DNA of 32,000 nucleotides from Rosenbergiella nectarea (GTDB lineage: Bacteria; Pseudomonadota; Gammaproteobacteria; Enterobacterales; Enterobacteriaceae): NCBI RefSeq assembly GCF_900111105.1, contig NZ_FOGC01000001.1, positions 162,323 through 194,322 of the forward strand. The letters are read 5' to 3'. The first letter of the stretch is position 1. Each line of letters starts with the position of its first letter. This document shows, piece after piece, positions 8,367 to 24,107 of the stretch. A program made the translations under genes and the position numbers. The notes beneath the pieces were generated by a model. It was not told the origin of the DNA. It was given only the letters and a program-made list of their open reading frames with translations, and did not search any database.

Positions 8367-8393
8367 GGCCACGTTTACACATCCCCTTCAGTG

Positions 8394-8479
8394 CCGAAGT
8401 GGCGAAATCGGTAGACGCAGTTGATTCAAAATCAACCGCCCTTTGGGTGTGCCGGTTCAAGTCCGGCCTTCGGCACCAA
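8394..8479 (+). tRNA. leuX: tRNA-Leu (anticodon CAA), leuX type
   Basis: 86 nt. Acceptor stem GCCGAAG/CTTCGGC followed by ACCA; anticodon stem GTTGA/TCAAC with loop TTCAAAA (CAA); long variable arm. Both ends are near-identical to E. coli leuX as recalled. leuX is a classical P4-integrase target. Confidence 0.95.
8461..8479 (+). repeat. attL core of satellite 1 (3' end of tRNA-Leu)
   Basis: This 19-nt segment recurs at 18776-18793 with a single G deletion. Confidence 0.85.
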
Positions 8480-8641
8480 TCACTCTTCCGGCAACGTCCG
8501 AGAAAGTCTGAAAAATCCTTTTAAATCATACATTACCATCATTTTAGCGTCCGAGGACGTCCGAGAAGTTCCGTTGCAATCCAGACCCTTCTGGGGGCAT
8601 AATTGGGGGCATATTAACTTCGATGGAAAATGTGCCCCCAA

Positions 8642-18569: not shown

Positions 18570-18775
18570 GTGTGTAGGATTTTTCATAAAAAAAACTAAT
18601 TTTTTTATTTTTTCTATCAAAACACATATCCGGTATTTGAAATTGTCTTCTCAAATGGGATTCAAGCTAATAGGTCACATTTGTTATAAGAAAATTGCAG
18701 GGGGCACATTAAGGGGCATATAAAAATAAAAAGAAATTAAAATCGGTTAAATACATATACTTAACCTGTTTTATG

Positions 18776-18793
18776 AGTCCGGCCTTCGCACCA
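18776..18793 (+). repeat. attR of satellite 1 and attL of satellite 2 (copy of the tRNA-Leu 3' end)
   Basis: AGTCCGGCCTTCGCACCA is 8461-8479 minus one G. The downstream sequence is then homologous to the int-upstream region of satellite 1. Confidence 0.85.
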
Positions 18794-18932
18794 ATCACTC
18801 TTCCGGCAACGTCCGAGAAAGTCAAAAAAATCATTTTAAATCATATATTATCATCAGTTCCTCGCCTGAGTATGTCCGAGAAGTTCCGTTGCAATCCAGA
18901 CCCTTCTGGGGGCATATTAACTTCGATGGCAA

Positions 18933-20202
18933 ATGTGCCCCCAAATGAAGCTGAACGCCAGACAGGTAGAGACTGCAAAGCCAAAAGATAAGGTTTATAA
19001 ATTAGCTGATGGTGGAGGGCTATATCTTGAGGTATCAGCGAAAGGTTCTAAATATTGGTGTATGAAGTATCGCCGCCCAACTGATAAAAAAGAAGATCGC
19101 TTAGCTTTTGGGGTGTGGCCTGTTATTACGTTCGCGCAAGCACGAGCGAAACGAGATGAAGCTAAAAAATTAATCAGTCAGGGTATTGATCCCCAAGCAG
19201 AACAGAAAGAGGCTCAATCTGAAAACTCTGGTGCGTATAAGTTTGAGACTATTGCCCGAGAGTGGCATGCCAATAATAAGTGATGGAGCAGTGGCCATAG
19301 CGCCCGCGTTTTGCGATATTTAGAGTTATACATTTTTCCGTTTATCGGCAATGAAGATGTACGCCTACTCAAGACAAGCCATTTATTAGCGCCAATAAAA
19401 AAGTTGATGCCAGTGGTAAACATGATGTCGCACAGCGTTTACAGCAAAGAGTGACGGCAATAATGCGCTATGCAGTACAGAATGACTATATCGATTCAAA
19501 CCCTGCAATGGACATGGCTGGCGCATTGACTACAACCAAGGCTCGCCACTATCCAGCTTTACCCTTCCACAGATTCCCAGAGTTTTTAGAGAGGCTTGCC
19601 CGATACAGAGGTCGCAAGATAACTCGTATTGCAGTTCAGCTATCACTTCTAACCTTTGTAAGGTCTAGCGAGCTTAGATTTGCTTGTTGGTCTGAATTCG
19701 ATTTAGAGCGTGCGTTATGGCGCATTCCTGCAAAGCGTGAAGAAGTGGAGGGTATTCGCCATTCTCACCGTGGGATGAAAATGAAGGAAGAGCATATAGT
19801 CCCTCTTAGCACACAGGCCCTCGCTATACTCTATGAGCTTAGACAGATTAGTGGTGATAACCCTCGTTTATTTTCGGGGGATCATGATGCAAGAAAAGTG
19901 ATGAGCGAAAATACGGTTAATACTGCGCCTCATACAATGGGTTACGACACCAAAACCGAAGTTTGCGGACACGGTTTTAGAACTATGGCGAGAGGAGCTA
20001 TAGGGGAATCAGGTTTATGGACTGGTGACGCTATAGAGAGGCAACTCAGCCATACGGAACGCAATAATGTTAGAGCGGCTTATATTCATACTTCTGAGCA
20101 TTTAGAAGAACGCGTTTAATGGTGCAGTGGTGGGCTGATTATTTATCCAGTATTACAAATAAATACTTAACGCCTTACGAATTTGCAAAAAAAAGCGCGT
20201 AA
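18933..20202 (+). pseudogene. P4-type integrase pseudogene
   Basis: Collinear with 8630-9895 at high identity but carries three lesions. CGA is changed to TGA at 19281-19283. An A7 run is shortened to A6 at 19397-19402 (a -1 frameshift; A7 in the intact copy at 9094-9100). A 1-nt deletion creates a TAA at 20117-20119, while the remaining C-terminal coding sequence continues to 20202. Confidence 0.92.
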
Positions 20203-20345
20203 CTGGTTTTGTACCGTCCTTTTCAGTTTATTATTGTGTAGATAATCCTACAAGCCCTAGGGCATGAATTAGGTAAGTAAAGGCGTTAGTTTTGTCCTGA
20301 CCGCGGCACAATTAACGCTTATTCTTATTCACAGTGAGAAATTAT

Positions 20346-20588
20346 ATGAGCAAAACCCTCAATGGCGTTCCTGACGCTTCCGCCCTTGTCGAGGGTGTTA
20401 GCGCTACGGAGTGCTTTACATTTGGTGATCCCATTCCAGTACTCGACAGAAGAGAGTTACTTGATTACGTCGAATGCGGGCGATATGAGCATTGGTATGA
20501 GCCACCTATCAGTTTTGACTGGTTAGCCCGCACATTCCGCAGCGCCGTGCATCACAGCTCACCGATTCAAGTAAACGTAATATTTTAA
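20346..20588 (+). pseudogene. N-terminal fragment of a P2-like (PBSX-family) phage portal gene
   Basis: CFTFGDPIPVLDRRELLDYVECGRYEHWYEPPISFDWLARTFRSAVHHSSPIQV matches the conserved portal N-terminus as recalled. The ORF ends after about 80 aa, where the composition drops to AT-rich. Confidence 0.6.
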
Positions 20589-20768
20589 TCGGACTAACTA
20601 ACCAGCCTTTAGAATTTTTTCACATGAAAGGAGATTATGCCTAGAAAAAAGATTTCAAGATGCCTATTAATTTTTTTAAAAAAAACCTTCAAATTCCCGA
20701 TCAAAATCAATGAAGTGCCAAAAAAAGTTCGTAGTATGTTTGACTCTGAATAGATAAAGGATGAAAAA

Positions 20769-21416
20769 ATGCTAGGACCAGAAAAAGGAATGCTGACATT
20801 CAAGGCTGAAGGCAATAATTTAAAATCAAGTAGGGATTATTCAAGAATCATACACTGGCCTGGAAGCTCATTATCATGCAAAAAGAATAACTCAGGGGTC
20901 ACTATTGGTAGAGGGTTTGATCTTGGTGATAGAACAAAGGTAGAGGCATTAATAATTTTAAAAAAAGCGGGGATAGAAAAAGAAAAAGCAGAATTCATAG
21001 CTGAAGGTGCGAAATTAAAAGGATGTTTAGCTAATAACTTTGTTGCTAACCAAAGGAATGCTATTAATGAAATTACGGAAAGGCAGCAATTAAATTTATT
21101 AATTATAAACTACAATGAATCAAGAAAAGACGTTGAGAGAATATGTAAAAGTATATTCACAATACAAAAGTACCACTCAAAACCTAATACATCACCAGCT
21201 GAAGCCTGGGGTAACATCCCAGATAAAATAAAAGAAGTACTAGTAGACTTACGCTTCCGTGGTGACTACAGCAAAAGAACCAGAAAGTACATACAAAAAT
21301 TGGCATACGATGGAGACATAAAAGGATTCGGGAAAGTGATCTCAGATAGGAAAGTTTGGGTTGAAGTTCCGTATGACAGGTTCAAAAGAAGGATTGATTT
21401 TTATGAAAATGAATAA
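20769..21416 (+). CDS. Pesticin-C-terminal-like (T4-lysozyme-fold) muramidase; candidate antibacterial effector
   Basis: 215 aa. FKAEGNN...NNSGVTIGRGFDLGDRTK parallels pesticin GFEGFN...STGVTFGSGVDLGQRSK (catalytic Glu plus the Gly-rich turn). There is no N-terminal delivery or receptor-binding domain and no signal peptide. Confidence 0.6.
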   Translation: MLGPEKGMLTFKAEGNNLKSSRDYSRIIHWPGSSLSCKKNNSGVTIGRGFDLGDRTKVEALIILKKAGIEKEKAEFIAEGAKLKGCLANNFVANQRNAINEITERQQLNLLIINYNESRKDVERICKSIFTIQKYHSKPNTSPAEAWGNIPDKIKEVLVDLRFRGDYSKRTRKYIQKLAYDGDIKGFGKVISDRKVWVEVPYDRFKRRIDFYENE

Positions 21417-21756
21417 TGCGATTCTCTTTTTGTTAATATATTCGTTTAATGTTTGTGCAGCTTTTACAGAACCAGAAATGAGTCAATTAGCAGAGATAAA
21501 TAAAAATTCCATTGAAAAAACAAAAAGGGAGAAAAAAAATCTCGAATTGATCATAATAAAAACAATAAAAAACCTCCCAGAACAAAAGAATAAAATAATT
21601 GACCTGAATAAATCATGGAGCGAAACCATTAATAAAAAATGTAAGCTTTCAATATTTGAGTCAATAAATACAGACGCAGAAATAGCAGAGGAAAACTTAT
21701 GTTTATACTCTGAATACAAATTAGAAGCGGATTTCTTTGACGGTTTGAATTATTAA
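21403..21756 (+). CDS. Periplasmic LprI/DUF1311-like protein; candidate cognate immunity (lysozyme inhibitor-like)
   Basis: The ATG at 21403 overlaps the muramidase gene's end by 14 nt. It has a signal peptide MKMNNAILFLLIYSFNVCAA, and LNKSWSETINKKC...EENLC fits the DUF1311 W...C...C pattern. Confidence 0.55.
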   Translation: MKMNNAILFLLIYSFNVCAAFTEPEMSQLAEINKNSIEKTKREKKNLELIIIKTIKNLPEQKNKIIDLNKSWSETINKKCKLSIFESINTDAEIAEENLCLYSEYKLEADFFDGLNY

Positions 21757-22516
21757 TTGACAATGTGAGGTGCGTGAAAAACATCTCATGATTTTTGTAA
21801 AAATACCACTTACTTTCTCAATGCTGTCAGGGTGTAATAGGTTATTGTTAGGTTTTCGATGGAAAAGGTTATCGAGCTTCGATAAATGGACATCATCAGA
21901 TTGGATACACTATCAGGATAGGTGGTTTTAAAACTAAACAGACAAATCATAGTTGGTAACGGCATTTCTTTTAATCTAAATTCGAGTGTGGGGGATTAGA
22001 TGAATAACAGGAAAACTGTTTAAATACCTAAGATATCTGGAAGGCCATTTAAATATATTACAAGTACCGCCCAAATGCTTTATAAAAGATTATATGCGTA
22101 ATCCATTATAACTATACGTCTTCCGCTCTTAAAACCGCTAAAAATGACTTAGATGAATTCTGATGCCATGAATCGTTATATATCCAACTGAGTAGCCGCT
22201 GATTCCATAACTGTATGACAACAAAATATCAAACTATAATATGGCCTTACACCTGCGTTTTCTGCGGAGCGTCAAATCCGGCGCTTTACCCCTCTGCGCC
22301 CGCCCGCCTGCGCACTTCACTTAATAATGCGTTTTTATGCTAAAGCCCATATACCAAGGGTTATAGAGAGAATTTGAGTGCATGAGACTCATGCGTTTTC
22401 ATGCAGCGTAGACATGCACTCACGAAAAAAATGCTAGCCAGAGAAAGGAGGTGTAAAAAAGCCCAATTTATTTGGGCTTGAGGAGAGAATGAGAGTCAGA
22501 ATTGATACCCATTAGA

Positions 22517-22792
22517 TTAGGTTTGAGCGTGTCGGTCAGGTAAATTGAATGATGACCCGTAACGGCCTAATGATTGGCCTTTGCGCATCTGCATTTTCGT
22601 TTCCTCGACTGTTTTCTCCTCCGTTAGCCGTTCAGGCTTGCTGATAATTTTCTCTACATTTTCCAAAGCCTTAAACGTGCAAGAACAATCGAAATTTGTG
22701 CATTAGTAATAAATCCGCTTCACTGAATCAGATAGATACTGGCTTGAACGGCAATGCGCCATCTGTAAACAAAAAGGGCACTTTATCGCCAT
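22517..22792 (-). pseudogene. Ogr/Delta-family activator pseudogene
   Basis: Same length as 13000-13275, but codon 30 is TAA (22705-22703) where the intact copy has CAA. It translates as MAIKCPFCLQMAHCRSSQYLSDSVKRIYY*. Confidence 0.88.
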
Positions 22793-22997
22793 TATTTGCC
22801 TCCTTGCTTCTTCATTGCTCTGCGAGTCTTGATTCTACTTCTTGCAGCAGGTGTTCCCCCTTTATGAAAGTCATAATGAGAAGCTGACTCAGGGTAGTGG
22901 CCTACTAAGGTAAACGCAGGGTCGTTTGGTAACTCGTCGTTACCAAAGGCTCGTGACAAAATTTTACTATTAACAAAATTGGTTAACGCGCTTTTAC
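22792..22997 (-). pseudogene. Psu-like gene remnant (C-terminal ~68 codons only)
   Basis: It translates to ...LTNFVNSKILSRAFGNDELPNDPAFTLVGHYPESASHYDFHKGGTPAARSRIKTRRAMKKQGGK*. Homology to 13275-13481 stops abruptly near 22997. Confidence 0.85.
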
Positions 22998-23209
22998 TGA
23001 TCCTGAATTAAGTCAATTGGCAGGAATAAACCAAAAATACATTAAGGAAGCTAAAGATTCTAAACGCCTGTTAGAAGAAAAAAATACAAGAGACAATTGC
23101 AAATCTCCCAGAGCAAAAGAGCAAGGTAGTCAACTTGAAAAACTCATGGAATAACACAATAGTGAAAATGTCGTCTTTTTATAGTTTAATCACTCAATGC
23201 TATCGTTGA
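22996..23209 (+). pseudogene. Fragment of a second LprI/DUF1311-like immunity gene (no signal peptide, frameshifted)
   Basis: TDPELSQLAGINQKYIKEAKDSKRLLEEK, then after a +1 shift in an A-run, IQETIANLPEQKSKVVNLKNSWNNTIVK. This parallels residues FTEPEMSQLAEINKNSIEK...IKTIKNLPEQKNKIIDLNKSWSETINKK of the 21403-21756 product. Confidence 0.7.
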
Positions 23210-23307
23210 TAGATACCAGTGAGTAATCCTTTTTTCAGTAGTGAGCGACGTATAGGACAGTTTACTTATTAATAATAACGATGATATTGATAAGTTTAAA
23301 CAATCCC

Positions 23308-23742
23308 TCAAAACTCTCTCTCAACAATCAAGTACCCATTGAACCTTACAGAGCACTCATATTTATTTTGTAGGCTAGAAGTAATGAAAGTGTTTTTTTG
23401 ATTTTTTTCATTTCTATAGATATATTTTGCAATGATTACTTCGGTATTGTCTGTAGAGTAACCTTCGATATAATTATTAAGACTGAGTATATGAGTGTTC
23501 AGTTTTTTATAGTCCTCTTTGGCCAGTTGCTCAGCATAAATTTTCGTGATAGGTGATACTGAAATAACCTCAACGCTGACATTTTTCTGGATAATCTGAT
23601 CTCTACTAATATTCATATCCTCAACGATTGCGTCGGTTAACCCTATATACATCGAGGCACCGATTTTAGCGCAGCCAACATTGTTACTGGCGACTGATTG
23701 GGTGGATAACATTACTAAAAGCAGCCCAATAAATTTATTCAT
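23308..23742 (-). CDS. Secreted protein; candidate immunity (Tldi-like) for the upstream Tlde1-like effector
   Basis: 144 aa with a signal peptide MNKFIGLLLVMLSTQSVAS. Its start overlaps the effector stop (TAATG). It is AT-rich. Confidence 0.6.
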   Translation of the reverse strand: MNKFIGLLLVMLSTQSVASNNVGCAKIGASMYIGLTDAIVEDMNISRDQIIQKNVSVEVISVSPITKIYAEQLAKEDYKKLNTHILSLNNYIEGYSTDNTEVIIAKYIYRNEKNQKNTFITSSLQNKYECSVRFNGYLIVEREF

Positions 23743-24107
23743 TACTCAACCTCTAATAAATTATCATTACTGTCAGTTAATAATTTTCTAAAAGCAAAAT
23801 CCAAAATAATACACCCCTCCGAAGCTTCGCCAGGATGTTTTTGACTGTCACCGTGAATCATAAAACCGCTTCGACCACACATCTGATTGGAGGGTGAAGG
23901 CGTCAGTCTCAACGTCAAACGGCCTGTTTTGGGGTGATGGAAAGGTTTACCAATGGTATAAGTGCCTTTAGGAATGGGGCCTTTTGCTTTCACACATTGG
24001 TTGTCACTATTATCTTGGTAGCCGGGACGGCCTGAATATCTTGCTGAAAACCGGTAATATCCATTAAGAAAAAACTGCTTAGTACTGACTCGATATAACC
24101 ATGCCAT
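23742..24107 (-). CDS. Tlde1-family (DUF2778) L,D-transpeptidase-like peptidoglycan effector
   Basis: 121 aa. GPIPKGTYTIGKP...LTPSPSNQMCGRSGFMIHGDSQKHPGEASEGCIIL carries the YkuD-like H-x(n)-GC catalytic signature and the DUF2778 layout. Confidence 0.78.
   Translation of the reverse strand: MAWLYRVSTKQFFLNGYYRFSARYSGRPGYQDNSDNQCVKAKGPIPKGTYTIGKPFHHPKTGRLTLRLTPSPSNQMCGRSGFMIHGDSQKHPGEASEGCIILDFAFRKLLTDSNDNLLEVE

What the first reader, a model, noticed from the sequence alone, without database searches (positions are those of the whole stretch)
20637..21756. Bare pesticin-like muramidase plus overlapping periplasmic LprI/DUF1311-like gene, in the hotspot position of the dead satellite
The 215-aa protein consists essentially only of a T4-lysozyme/pesticin-type catalytic domain (AEG...SGVTIGRGFDLGDRTK). 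It has no signal peptide, no receptor-binding or translocation domain, and no PAAR/Rhs/MIX-type delivery domain. The next gene overlaps it by 14 nt and encodes a signal-peptide protein with a DUF1311-like W...C...C core. That is the arrangement of a peptidoglycan-hydrolase toxin with its periplasmic immunity. The pair occupies the int-to-cos slot that carries the helicase system in satellite 1, so a satellite hotspot here carries an interbacterial-competition-type module, or a lysis/superinfection module, rather than a classical defence system. A 38-aa basic ORF with a strong GGAG Shine-Dalgarno sequence (20637-20753, MPRKKISRCLLIFLKKTFKFPIKINEVPKKVRSMFDSE) lies just upstream and is unexplained. 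No T6SS genes are present in the window, so the delivery route is unknown.
Basis: partly seen in the sequence, partly recalled or inferred. Interest (0 to 1): 0.62.

Follow-up and report, generated by a model that had tools for sequence, protein, structure and literature searches.

The report
Orphan T6SS muramidase toxin–immunity pair
This is a small cell-wall-cutting toxin gene and the gene for its periplasmic antidote, most likely fired at rival bacteria by the host's type VI secretion system; pairs of this kind are already known, and the only unusual point is that this one sits in the cargo slot of a decayed phage satellite.

Summary
Window 20769-21416 encodes a 215-aa, signal-less protein that consists only of a pesticin-type muramidase domain. 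The evidence is a Pfam PF16754 hit just over threshold, a profile hit to Y. pestis pesticin with T45/D51 on T201/D207, and an AF2 model (pLDDT 93) whose best PDB matches are pesticin.

Window 21403-21756 overlaps it by 14 nt and encodes a 117-aa Sec-signal protein. It has no Pfam hit, but its model best matches the DUF1311 structure 3GI7.

- The genome (Rosenbergiella) has three T6SS clusters and seven pesticin-like genes.
- 215-aa orthologues in Pantoea cypripedii sit in tandem units, each facing an orphan hcp.
- A Vibrio VgrG carries the same domain, followed by a homologous immunity gene.
- All 16 pesticin-positive genomes among 121 sampled have TssC.

The pair lies between int and cos/psu of decayed P4-like satellite 2. 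Sister satellites carry Helicase+DUF2290 or PARIS in that slot.

The 38-aa upstream ORF is not conserved as an ORF.

Known relatives are TssI2-TsiI2, VgrG3cp and Pantoea Pse15/Psi15. Verdict: new member of a known kind, moderate interest.

The parts
20606..20768 (+). Conserved AT-rich leader/promoter region of the cassette. It contains the 38-aa ORF 20637-20753, which is probably not a gene.
   Evidence: DNA similarity to the paralogous cassette (about 72%) begins at 20606. In the homologous leaders of C19b, L019 and L022 the ATG is ACG, ATA or GAG, the AGGAG is absent, and L019 and L022 carry stops or a frameshift. No Rfam hit. No sigma-70 consensus hit in the simple scan.
20769..21416 (+). 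Effector: 215-aa (24.7 kDa, pI 9.6) free-standing pesticin-type muramidase with no signal peptide. Putative catalytic residues are E14, T45 and D51.
   Evidence: PF16754 at 26.1 bits against a cut-off of 25.8. Profile against PDB pesticin 4aqn gives E 8.5e-5, with T45/D51 aligned to T201/D207. AF2 pLDDT 92.9. Foldseek top 11 hits are all pesticin, TMq 0.55-0.61. F11, G15, T45 and D51 are invariant and E14 is at least 90% conserved. dN/dS 0.10-0.20.
21403..21756 (+). Immunity: 117-aa Sec-signal protein (mature 11.4 kDa, pI 5.1), a three-helix DUF1311/LprI-like fold, translationally coupled through a 14-nt overlap.
   Evidence: No Pfam hit at E<=1. AF2 pLDDT 80. Foldseek top hit is 3gi7, a DUF1311 protein, with TMq 0.68, TMt 0.77-0.81 and rmsd 2.1. 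W72/C80/C100 are invariant and align to the W/C/C of a PF07007-positive paralogous immunity. It is 30% identical (E 5e-16) to the gene downstream of a Vibrio VgrG-pesticin. dN/dS 0.14-0.33.
18775..18797 (+). Internal att copy (3' end of tRNA-Leu, one base deleted) that opens satellite 2.
   Evidence: Fuzzy match to 8459-8482, the end of tRNA-Leu(CAA) at 8393-8478.
18933..20119 (+). Frameshifted P4-type integrase of satellite 2.
   Evidence: Arm-DNA-bind_3 and Phage_integrase hits fall on two separate ORFs. It is 91-93% identical to the satellite-1 integrase.
20334..20588 (+). N-terminal fragment of a P2-type portal gene (84 aa) between int and the cassette.
   Evidence: phrog_8392 portal, E 4.8e-29. 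It is 69% identical to a portal gene in C16. The same int + fragment + cassette order occurs in R. metrosideri.
22258..22998 (-). cos region, intact orf91 (22520-22792) and the C-terminal 68 codons of psu (22795-22998). This is the right-hand remnant of satellite 2.
   Evidence: 84.5% identity to satellite 1 and 87% to the C11 satellite. tblastn: orf91 89%, psu residues 172-239 at 76%.
22990..23227 (+). Remnant of a second immunity gene, left from the resident (pre-satellite) cassette.
   Evidence: 77-80% nucleotide identity to the immunity gene of the R. epipactidis and R. australiborealis cassettes at this same chromosomal site. That is higher than the 67-68% between those cassettes and the intact pair.
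23308..24107 (-). Neighbouring Tlde1-family effector (23742-24107) and its signal-peptide immunity (23308-23742). Together with the muramidase pair these form a small effector-immunity island.
   Evidence: PF10908 Tlde1_dom, E 1.2e-14. The pesticin-pair / Tlde1-pair arrangement is conserved in R. epipactidis and R. australiborealis. Other Tlde1 paralogues in this genome sit next to orphan hcp genes.

Best explanation
The two genes form an orphan (auxiliary) type VI secretion effector-immunity pair. The 215-aa protein is a bare pesticin-type N-acetylmuramidase made in the cytoplasm without a signal peptide. It is most likely loaded non-covalently as cargo on the T6SS tube/spike, probably inside or with an Hcp ring (24.7 kDa), and fired into the periplasm of neighbouring Gram-negative cells, where it cleaves the glycan strands of peptidoglycan. 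The overlapping gene makes a Sec-exported, acidic, three-helix DUF1311/LprI-fold protein. This protein sits in the producer's periplasm and blocks muramidase arriving from sister cells. The cassette has its own AT-rich leader, 32% GC against 44-46% around it. It arrived as cargo in the int-cos slot of a P4-like satellite that has since decayed. Shown here: the fold, the conserved catalytic Thr/Asp (and a conserved Glu), the export signal, the DUF1311 fold, purifying selection, T6SS presence, the genetic linkage of relatives to hcp/vgrG, and the satellite position. Inferred: T6SS dependence, the Hcp route, enzymatic activity and neutralisation.
For: Fold and active site. Immunity.

T6SS machinery in this genome: 3 TssC, 5 Hcp, several VgrG, 4 PAAR and 2-3 TssM.

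Linkage of relatives to T6SS genes:
- In Pantoea cypripedii, two tandem units consist of a 215-aa orthologue plus immunity, each convergent with an orphan hcp. Pantoea sp. App145 has the same layout.
- Vibrio pacinii has VgrG-PG_binding-Pesticin (1045 aa) with hcp upstream, and the downstream gene is 30% identical to this immunity.
- Hcp, VgrG or PAAR lies within 8 kb in 14 of 80 related loci.

Co-occurrence: all 16 genomes with a pesticin-like gene, out of 121 sampled (one per genus), have TssC, against 42 of the other 105 (Fisher p about 2e-6).

Genomic company: a Tlde1 pair lies next door and the arrangement is conserved across the genus. Tlde1 paralogues lie next to orphan hcp genes.

Experimental precedents from papers:
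- V. fluvialis TssI2-TsiI2: pesticin domain, periplasmic 127-aa immunity, Kd 1 nM, 36% GC module (PMC9620997).
- V. cholerae VgrG3cp (PMC9927483).
- Pantoea agglomerans orphan Pse15 (pesticin domain) with Psi15 (LprI), shown to be T6SS1-dependent (bioRxiv 10.64898/2026.08.01.741415).
- LprI genes downstream of lysozyme-like effectors in Pantoea hcp islands (PMC9796082).
Against: - No secretion or toxicity data exist for this protein.
- No hcp, vgrG, PAAR or adaptor gene lies in the window or next to any of the seven paralogues in this genome.
- The protein has no known T6SS delivery marker (MIX, FIX, PIX, WHIX, PAAR).
- The Pfam score is barely over threshold (26.1 against 25.8).
- The immunity fails the LprI HMM.
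- The same toxin-immunity module also occurs in non-T6SS vehicles: a colicin-like plasmid protein, gpV tail spikes and eCIS-core fusions. The domain alone therefore does not fix the route.
- Whether Pse15 belongs to the same subfamily could not be checked.
Confidence: 0.75

Rival explanations
1. The pair is a relic of a colicin-like bacteriocin. In this reading it is the killing domain and immunity of a pesticin-type bacteriocin that lost its receptor-binding and translocation domains, and it is now kept mainly for the immunity gene, which defends against neighbours' toxins.
For: The nearest multi-domain relatives in Enterobacter, Citrobacter and Ewingella (42-45% identity) are 379-774-aa proteins followed by a homologous immunity, 39-42% identical. 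A 6.2-kb mobilizable Enterobacter plasmid carries a 734-aa 'pesticin C-terminus-like muramidase' plus an LprI protein. An orphan immunity remnant lies at 22990-23227.
Against: The 215-aa length and the MLEPxxGxLTF start are kept in more than 25 sequence clusters from Erwinia, Rosenbergiella, Pantoea and Mixta. The effector has dN/dS of 0.1-0.2, as low as the immunity. There is no trace of upstream coding sequence. Intact orthologues are paired with hcp. The Ewingella relative itself lies between vgrG and PAAR.
Confidence: 0.07
2. The pair is a satellite or phage lysis or superinfection module. In this reading the muramidase is an endolysin used for release of the satellite or helper phage, or it acts on incoming phage, and the exported protein regulates it.
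For: The pair lies inside a P4-like satellite next to a P2 portal fragment. The fold is T4-lysozyme-like. There is a weak hit to phrog_24780 of unknown function. Xenorhabdus relatives are fused to a gpV tail spike.
Against: There is no tblastn hit in 50,697 phage genomes and none in 2.9 million IMG/VR contigs. No holin or spanin is adjacent. Orthologous pairs sit in plain chromosomal sites with no phage or satellite: E. tracheiphila between housekeeping genes and IS1, R. epipactidis directly after tRNA-Leu, and P. cypripedii between pgm and kdpE. A tight periplasmic inhibitor is the opposite of what a lysis enzyme needs.
Confidence: 0.04
3. The pair is an anti-phage defence system, as expected for a P4 hotspot. 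In this reading a cytoplasmic muramidase reaches the wall only when a phage holin opens the membrane, which causes premature lysis (abortive infection).
Against: There is no PADLOC hit. The co-expressed periplasmic inhibitor would block the proposed effect. The linkage of relatives is to hcp and vgrG, not to defence islands. A preprint reports that T6SS effectors and defence systems alternate in the same hotspots in Pantoea, so the position does not imply defence.
Confidence: 0.04
4. The protein is an antibacterial muramidase delivered by a route other than T6SS, for example a tailocin or eCIS particle, outer-membrane vesicles, or release by lysis.
For: Relatives are fused to eCIS_core domains and to gpV spikes. 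This copy has no delivery marker.
Against: A free 25-kDa protein cannot cross a target outer membrane unaided. No eCIS or tailocin genes are adjacent. The close 215-aa orthologues are linked to hcp specifically.
Confidence: 0.08

Closest known systems
Pantoea agglomerans Pse15/Psi15 (bioRxiv 10.64898/2026.08.01.741415)
   Same: It is an orphan bicistron in the same bacterial group (Erwinia/Pantoea relatives). It has a pesticin-domain effector plus an LprI-type immunity, lies in a variable hotspot that in other strains holds other cargo, and has its own promoter. It was shown to give T6SS1-dependent killing.
   Different: The Pse15 sequence (WP_062758233.1) was not available here, and none of the named homologues found was from P. 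agglomerans. Subfamily identity is therefore untested. Psi15 is a Pfam-detectable LprI, whereas this immunity is not. No satellite context was reported for Pse15.
Vibrio fluvialis TssI2-TsiI2 and V. cholerae VgrG3cp (evolved VgrG with a pesticin domain)
   Same: The toxin domain is the same (the V. pacinii VgrG of this type is about 40% identical over residues 6-214). The immunity family is the same (30% identity, E 5e-16). The immunity is a periplasmic Sec protein of about 120 aa, and the module has low GC. Periplasmic toxicity, muramidase activity and nanomolar binding were shown experimentally (PMC9620997).
   Different: There the domain is covalently fused to the VgrG spike behind a PG_binding_1 domain. 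Here it is a free-standing 215-aa protein that must be loaded as cargo.
Yersinia pestis pesticin (Pst) and its immunity Pim
   Same: The muramidase fold is the same and the Thr/Asp positions align. Immunity is periplasmic.
   Different: Pesticin has an N-terminal FyuA-binding and TonB-dependent translocation part and is a diffusible bacteriocin. This protein has neither part. Sequence identity is only 17-19%.
DUF1311 / LprI family (PF07007; structure 3GI7, PP0307)
   Same: Three-helix fold, TM 0.68-0.81. W...C...C core and signal peptide. PF07007-positive proteins follow three paralogous muramidases in this same genome.
   Different: No PF07007 hit even at E<=1 for any of 13 homologues. hhalign against a PF07007-positive paralogous immunity is weak (E 0.0018, probability 15%).
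P4-like satellite int-cos hotspot cargo (anti-phage systems such as PARIS)
   Same: The physical slot between int and cos is the same.
   Different: The cargo here is an interbacterial toxin-immunity pair, not a phage-defence system. This satellite is dead: int is frameshifted and everything beyond psu is deleted.

Membership tests
Pesticin C-terminal muramidase domain (PF16754) | Matches the family HMM above the curated threshold | tested here: met
   26.1 bits against a cut-off of 25.8, E 9.6e-6, so only just over. It is backed by a family profile hit to PDB pesticin at E 8.5e-5 and by 1281 representative relatives.
Pesticin C-terminal muramidase domain (PF16754) | T4-lysozyme-like pesticin fold | tested here: met
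   AF2 pLDDT 92.9 and pTM 0.86. The 11 best Foldseek PDB hits are all pesticin, probability 1.00, TMq 0.55-0.61. T4 lysozyme comes far behind.
Pesticin C-terminal muramidase domain (PF16754) | Catalytic Glu / Thr / Asp (pesticin E178, T201, D207) | tested here: met
   T45 and D51 align to T201 and D207 and are invariant. E14 lies in the invariant F-x-x-E-G motif and is at least 90% conserved, but it falls outside the HMM alignment to pesticin. Its equivalence to E178 (TssI2 E844) is inferred.
Pesticin C-terminal muramidase domain (PF16754) | Cleaves the MurNAc-GlcNAc bond of peptidoglycan | not testable with these tools
   This needs an enzyme assay.
T6SS cargo effector with cognate immunity | Complete T6SS in the same genome | tested here: met
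   3 TssC, 5 Hcp, 3 or more VgrG, 4 PAAR and 2-3 TssM on C11, C13, C18 and C20.
T6SS cargo effector with cognate immunity | Genetic linkage of the family to hcp, vgrG or PAAR | tested here: met
   Not in this genome, but in relatives: P. cypripedii tandem effector-immunity/hcp units, a Vibrio VgrG fusion, and 14 of 80 loci with T6SS genes within 8 kb.
T6SS cargo effector with cognate immunity | Adjacent immunity gene whose product goes to the target compartment (periplasm) | tested here: met
   14-nt overlap. The Sec-type signal was read from the sequence, not run through a predictor.
T6SS cargo effector with cognate immunity | Recognisable delivery domain or adaptor (MIX, FIX, PIX, WHIX, PAAR, DUF4123, DUF1795, DUF2169) | tested here: not met
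   Pfam finds only Pesticin and homology starts at residue 3-6. This is not required for Hcp-loaded small effectors.
T6SS cargo effector with cognate immunity | T6SS-dependent secretion and killing, neutralised by the immunity | not testable with these tools
   Shown only for relatives in papers.
LprI / DUF1311 (PF07007) | Matches the family HMM | tested here: not met
   No hit at E<=1 for the protein or for any of its 12 homologues, and none in the whole-genome PF07007 scan at E<=0.1.
LprI / DUF1311 (PF07007) | DUF1311 fold with a conserved Trp and Cys pair | tested here: met
   Foldseek top hit 3gi7, rmsd 2.1 A over 94 columns. W72/C80/C100 are invariant and align with the W/C/C of a PF07007-positive paralogue's immunity. 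It is best called a DUF1311-fold protein that is too divergent for the HMM.
Pse15/Psi15 subfamily | Significant sequence similarity to WP_062758233.1 / WP_122459110.1 | not tested
   The sequences are not held and no supplement is available. No homologue named from P. agglomerans appeared.
Colicin-like bacteriocin (pesticin type) | N-terminal receptor-binding and translocation domains | tested here: not met
   The protein is the toxin domain alone.
Phage endolysin / lysis cassette | Occurs in phage genomes next to holin or spanin genes | tested here: not met
   No hit in the phage collection or IMG/VR. No holin-like or spanin-like neighbour.
Cargo of the P4-like satellite int-cos hotspot | Lies between the satellite integrase and the cos/psu late region | tested here: met
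   att 18775-18797, int 18933-20119, pair 20769-21756, cos/orf91/psu' 22258-22998. R. metrosideri has the same int + portal fragment + cassette order. A paralogous cassette also lies beside psu/orf91 remnants.

The most novel reading that the evidence does not exclude
P4-like satellites of Rosenbergiella use their int-cos hotspot to carry and spread T6SS effector-immunity cassettes as well as phage-defence systems. A cell that loses the satellite also loses immunity and is killed by its siblings. The cassette would therefore act as a T6SS-enforced addiction module for the satellite, and helper-phage transduction would become a route for exchanging interbacterial weapons.
Probability: 0.2. Interest if true: 0.6.

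Novelty: new member of a known kind. Interest (0 to 1): 0.36.

Why it matters
The finding adds a well-delimited family to the known pesticin-type T6SS effectors: a minimal 215-aa muramidase with no delivery domain, restricted to Erwinia, Pantoea, Rosenbergiella and Mixta. Its tandem association with orphan hcp genes in Pantoea makes it a clean candidate for studying Hcp-dependent loading.

One genome shows the same satellite slot filled in three satellites by Helicase+DUF2290, by PARIS and by a T6SS toxin-immunity pair. This gives a concrete satellite example of the 'armoury hotspot' idea recently proposed for Pantoea.

The immunity protein is a DUF1311-fold member that the Pfam model misses, which is useful for improving detection of orphan immunity genes.

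None of this overturns current understanding.

Tried and rejected
- Pfam, NCBIfam and PHROGs on the immunity protein and on the 38-aa ORF gave nothing meaningful.
- A profile of the immunity against PDB sequences gave only chance hits such as troponin. Only the fold search was informative.
- hhalign of the immunity profile against the two LprI-positive paralogous immunities was weak for one (E 0.0018) and failed for the other.
- Rfam (E<=0.1) and the promoter/terminator scan on the leader and intergenic DNA found nothing.
- PADLOC found no defence-family hit for either pair.
- The phage collection and IMG/VR hold no relatives, so I dropped the lysis-module reading.
- I tried to tie the protein to Pse15 through named homologues, cluster accessions and the paper's supplements, without success.
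It was replaced by the real tRNA end.
- I considered the 38-aa ORF as a small regulator or chaperone and rejected it, because its start codon, Shine-Dalgarno sequence and frame are not conserved.
Full report
**What is there**

ORF 20769-21416 (+) encodes 215 aa. ORF 21403-21756 (+) encodes 117 aa and overlaps it by 14 nt. The cassette, from 20606 to 21756, has 32% GC against 44% for the window and 46% for the core flank. The window is G000:C19:162323-194322 of a 3.29-Mb genome.

**The first protein is a bare pesticin-type muramidase**

- Pfam gives PF16754 at 26.1 bits, just over the 25.8 cut-off.
- A profile of 26 homologues hits Y. pestis pesticin in the PDB at E 8.5e-5. It aligns GVTIGRGFDLG with pesticin GVTFGSGVDLG, so T45 and D51 fall on the catalytic T201 and D207.
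- The AlphaFold model is confident (pLDDT 92.9). Its 11 best PDB matches are all pesticin chains (TMq 0.55-0.61, probability 1.0), with T4 lysozyme far behind.
- F11, G15, T45 and D51 are invariant, and E14 is conserved in at least 90% of sequences. E14 probably corresponds to pesticin E178 and TssI2 E844, but this is inferred.
- There is no signal peptide.
- In 1281 representative relatives the homology starts at residue 3-6 of this protein. The 215 aa are therefore the toxin domain and nothing else.

**The second protein is an exported DUF1311-fold protein**

- It begins MKMNNAILFLLIYSFNVCA|AF.
- It has no Pfam, NCBIfam or PDB-sequence hit.
- Its model (pLDDT 80) is a three-helix bundle.
- The best PDB match is the DUF1311 protein PP0307 (3gi7; rmsd 2.1 A, TMt about 0.8). 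The next matches are an entry described only as an effector-immunity complex (4nso/4nsr).
- W72, C80 and C100 are invariant.
- In this same genome three paralogous muramidase genes are followed by proteins that do pass PF07007. One of these aligns weakly to this family over the W/C/C core.
- Both genes show dN/dS of about 0.1-0.3.

**Delivery route**

The evidence now points to T6SS.

- The genome has three TssC, five Hcp, several VgrG, four PAAR and TssM genes.
- It has seven pesticin-like genes. Six are roughly 200-215-aa proteins, five of them followed by a signal-peptide gene, and one is a 307-aa form.
- In Pantoea cypripedii two 215-aa orthologues (57-61% identical), each with its immunity, sit in tandem between pgm and kdpE. 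Each faces an orphan hcp.
- Pantoea sp. App145 has one such unit, with a stop codon in the effector.
- In Vibrio pacinii the domain is the C-terminus of a 1045-aa VgrG with hcp just upstream. The next gene is 30% identical to this immunity.
- Fourteen of 80 related loci have Hcp, VgrG or PAAR within 8 kb, even though only Rosenbergiella seeds were used for detection.
- Among 121 genomes (one per genus of the family), all 16 with a pesticin-like gene have TssC, against 42 of the other 105. Many T6SS-negative genomes are reduced symbionts and relatives are not independent, so this is a passed refutation test, not proof.
- The window also holds a Tlde1 effector pair 2 kb away. The two pairs are neighbours in two sister species.
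- Tlde1 paralogues elsewhere in the genome lie beside orphan hcp genes.
- Papers show T6SS delivery, periplasmic action and tight immunity binding for pesticin-domain effectors in Vibrio (PMC9620997, PMC9927483). A preprint shows T6SS1 dependence for an orphan pesticin-domain/LprI pair, Pse15/Psi15, in Pantoea agglomerans.
- LprI genes behind lysozyme-like effectors in Pantoea hcp islands were noted earlier (PMC9796082).

**Other vehicles for the same module**

- A 734-aa protein plus LprI on a 6.2-kb mobilizable Enterobacter plasmid (colicin-like).
- 647-774-aa proteins in Enterobacter and Citrobacter with a homologous immunity.
- gpV tail-spike fusions in Xenorhabdus.
- Fusions to eCIS_core, PG_binding_1, SH3, CHAP, Amidase_2 or TseH.

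The domain is thus a polymorphic-toxin cassette. The route for the free form rests on the hcp linkage of its close orthologues.

**Rivals**

- Phage lysis role. This is disfavoured. There is no relative in 50,697 phage genomes or in IMG/VR and no holin or spanin nearby. Orthologues sit in plain chromosomal sites.
- Defence role. There is no PADLOC hit, and a periplasmic inhibitor argues against it.
- Bacteriocin relic. This is contradicted by the fixed length, the conserved start and the purifying selection.

**Satellite context**

- tRNA-Leu(CAA) is at 8393-8478 and its 3' end recurs at 18775-18797.
- After the second copy come a frameshifted integrase (91% identical in nucleotide sequence to satellite 1's), an 84-aa P2 portal fragment, the cassette, then cos, an intact orf91 and the last 68 codons of psu. 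Homology stops at 22998. The cassette therefore occupies the int-cos slot.
A third satellite on C11 carries PARIS AriA/AriB.
- R. metrosideri has int (93%, intact), the portal fragment and the cassette in the same order, with a frameshifted effector.
- The paralogous cassette at C19:475877-477007 also lies next to psu/orf91 remnants.
- R. epipactidis has no satellite. There the tRNA is followed directly by an orthologous cassette, the Tlde1 cluster and the same core flank.
- The immunity-gene fragment at 22990-23227 of the window matches that resident cassette better (77-80%) than the intact pair does (67-68%).
- The simplest history is as follows. A resident effector-immunity island lay at tRNA-Leu. 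A satellite bringing its own allele of the cassette integrated there. A deletion then removed the satellite from psu onward together with the resident effector.

**The 38-aa ORF**

The about 165 nt upstream of the effector are conserved at the same about 72% as the genes. In the three homologous leaders, however, the ATG is ACG, ATA or GAG and the AGGAG is missing. Two of the leaders also carry stops or a frameshift. It is most likely a chance ORF in a promoter/leader region. Pse15 was likewise cloned with 261 bp of its own upstream DNA.

**Limits**

No experiment was possible. Hcp loading, enzymatic activity and neutralisation are inferred.

**Verdict**

The thing is an ordinary but well-documented orphan T6SS muramidase/immunity pair. 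The satellite-hotspot location is the only modestly new aspect.

Noticed in passing
G000:C11:170940-180485 (locus L115 = C11:170000-176500): A third, apparently intact P4-like satellite (alpha 98%, psu 93% identical to satellite 1, and a different integrase at 37%) carries PARIS (AriA 340 aa, AriB 330 aa) in its int-cos slot.
   Followed up: partly
window 22990-23227: This frameshifted, signal-less immunity-gene remnant abuts the truncated psu. It is the orthologue (77-80% nucleotide identity) of the immunity gene of the cassette that R. epipactidis and R. australiborealis carry at this same site. It marks a displaced resident cassette.
   Followed up: yes
window 22096-22207: A 112-nt repeat has copies at 79-80% identity on C4:5-115, C13:1885-1996 and C9:37430-37524. 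The C13 and C9 copies lie within about 0.5 kb of Tlde1 paralogues. It may be a cassette-flanking or promoter element.
   Followed up: no
G000:C22:67996-80409 (locus L117): Another integrase/primase element (int 35%, alpha-like primase 30%) ends with a Tlde1 effector (122 aa) and a signal-peptide gene (117 aa). This is a second case of an effector-immunity pair riding on an integrative element.
   Followed up: no
G000:C13:9552-10327 and C11:73685-74925: Orphan hcp genes lie directly next to Tlde1-domain genes. These are Hcp-effector auxiliary modules in the same genome.
   Followed up: partly
G000:C12:27960-28990; C17:271085-272103; C25:4046-7074; C12:19850-20868: Further pesticin-like genes: a 307-aa form with an N-terminal extension plus LprI, a 205-aa form plus LprI flanked by transposase fragments, and two divergently placed copies on C25. 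One C25 copy has an LprI immunity carrying a (QAG)n repeat; the other has no downstream immunity ORF. Several of these genes sit beside integrase genes.
   Followed up: partly
G000:C19:474138-475300: A 264-aa protein with a PG_binding-like N-terminus, plus an overlapping 123-aa signal-peptide gene, is inserted between the paralogous cassette and its psu/orf91 remnant. It is probably another cell-wall effector-immunity pair.
   Followed up: no
L118 (Pantoea cypripedii CP024768.1:1166371-1181018): A tandem duplication of the unit [215-aa muramidase + immunity, convergent hcp] lies between pgm and kdpE. It is followed by a transposase fragment.
   Followed up: yes
L113 (NZ_CP074164.1) and L114 (CP057981.1): A 6.2-kb mobilizable Enterobacter plasmid encodes a 734-aa pesticin-like protein plus an LprI protein (bacteriocin-like). 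E. coli IncF plasmids carry a 277-aa relative, annotated as 'calcium sensor EFh', plus a DUF1311 gene.
   Followed up: partly
L029, L030 (Xenorhabdus mauleonii, X. santafensis): A P2 gpV-type baseplate spike (Phage_base_V, Phage_spike, Apex) is fused to the pesticin-like domain (466-473 aa). This is a tail-spike or tailocin lysozyme of the same family.
   Followed up: no
window 20334-20588: An N-terminal P2 portal (Q) fragment is kept between int and the cassette in two Rosenbergiella species. This suggests that the cassette, or the slot, once recombined with a P2-like helper near its cos/Q hotspot.
   Followed up: partly
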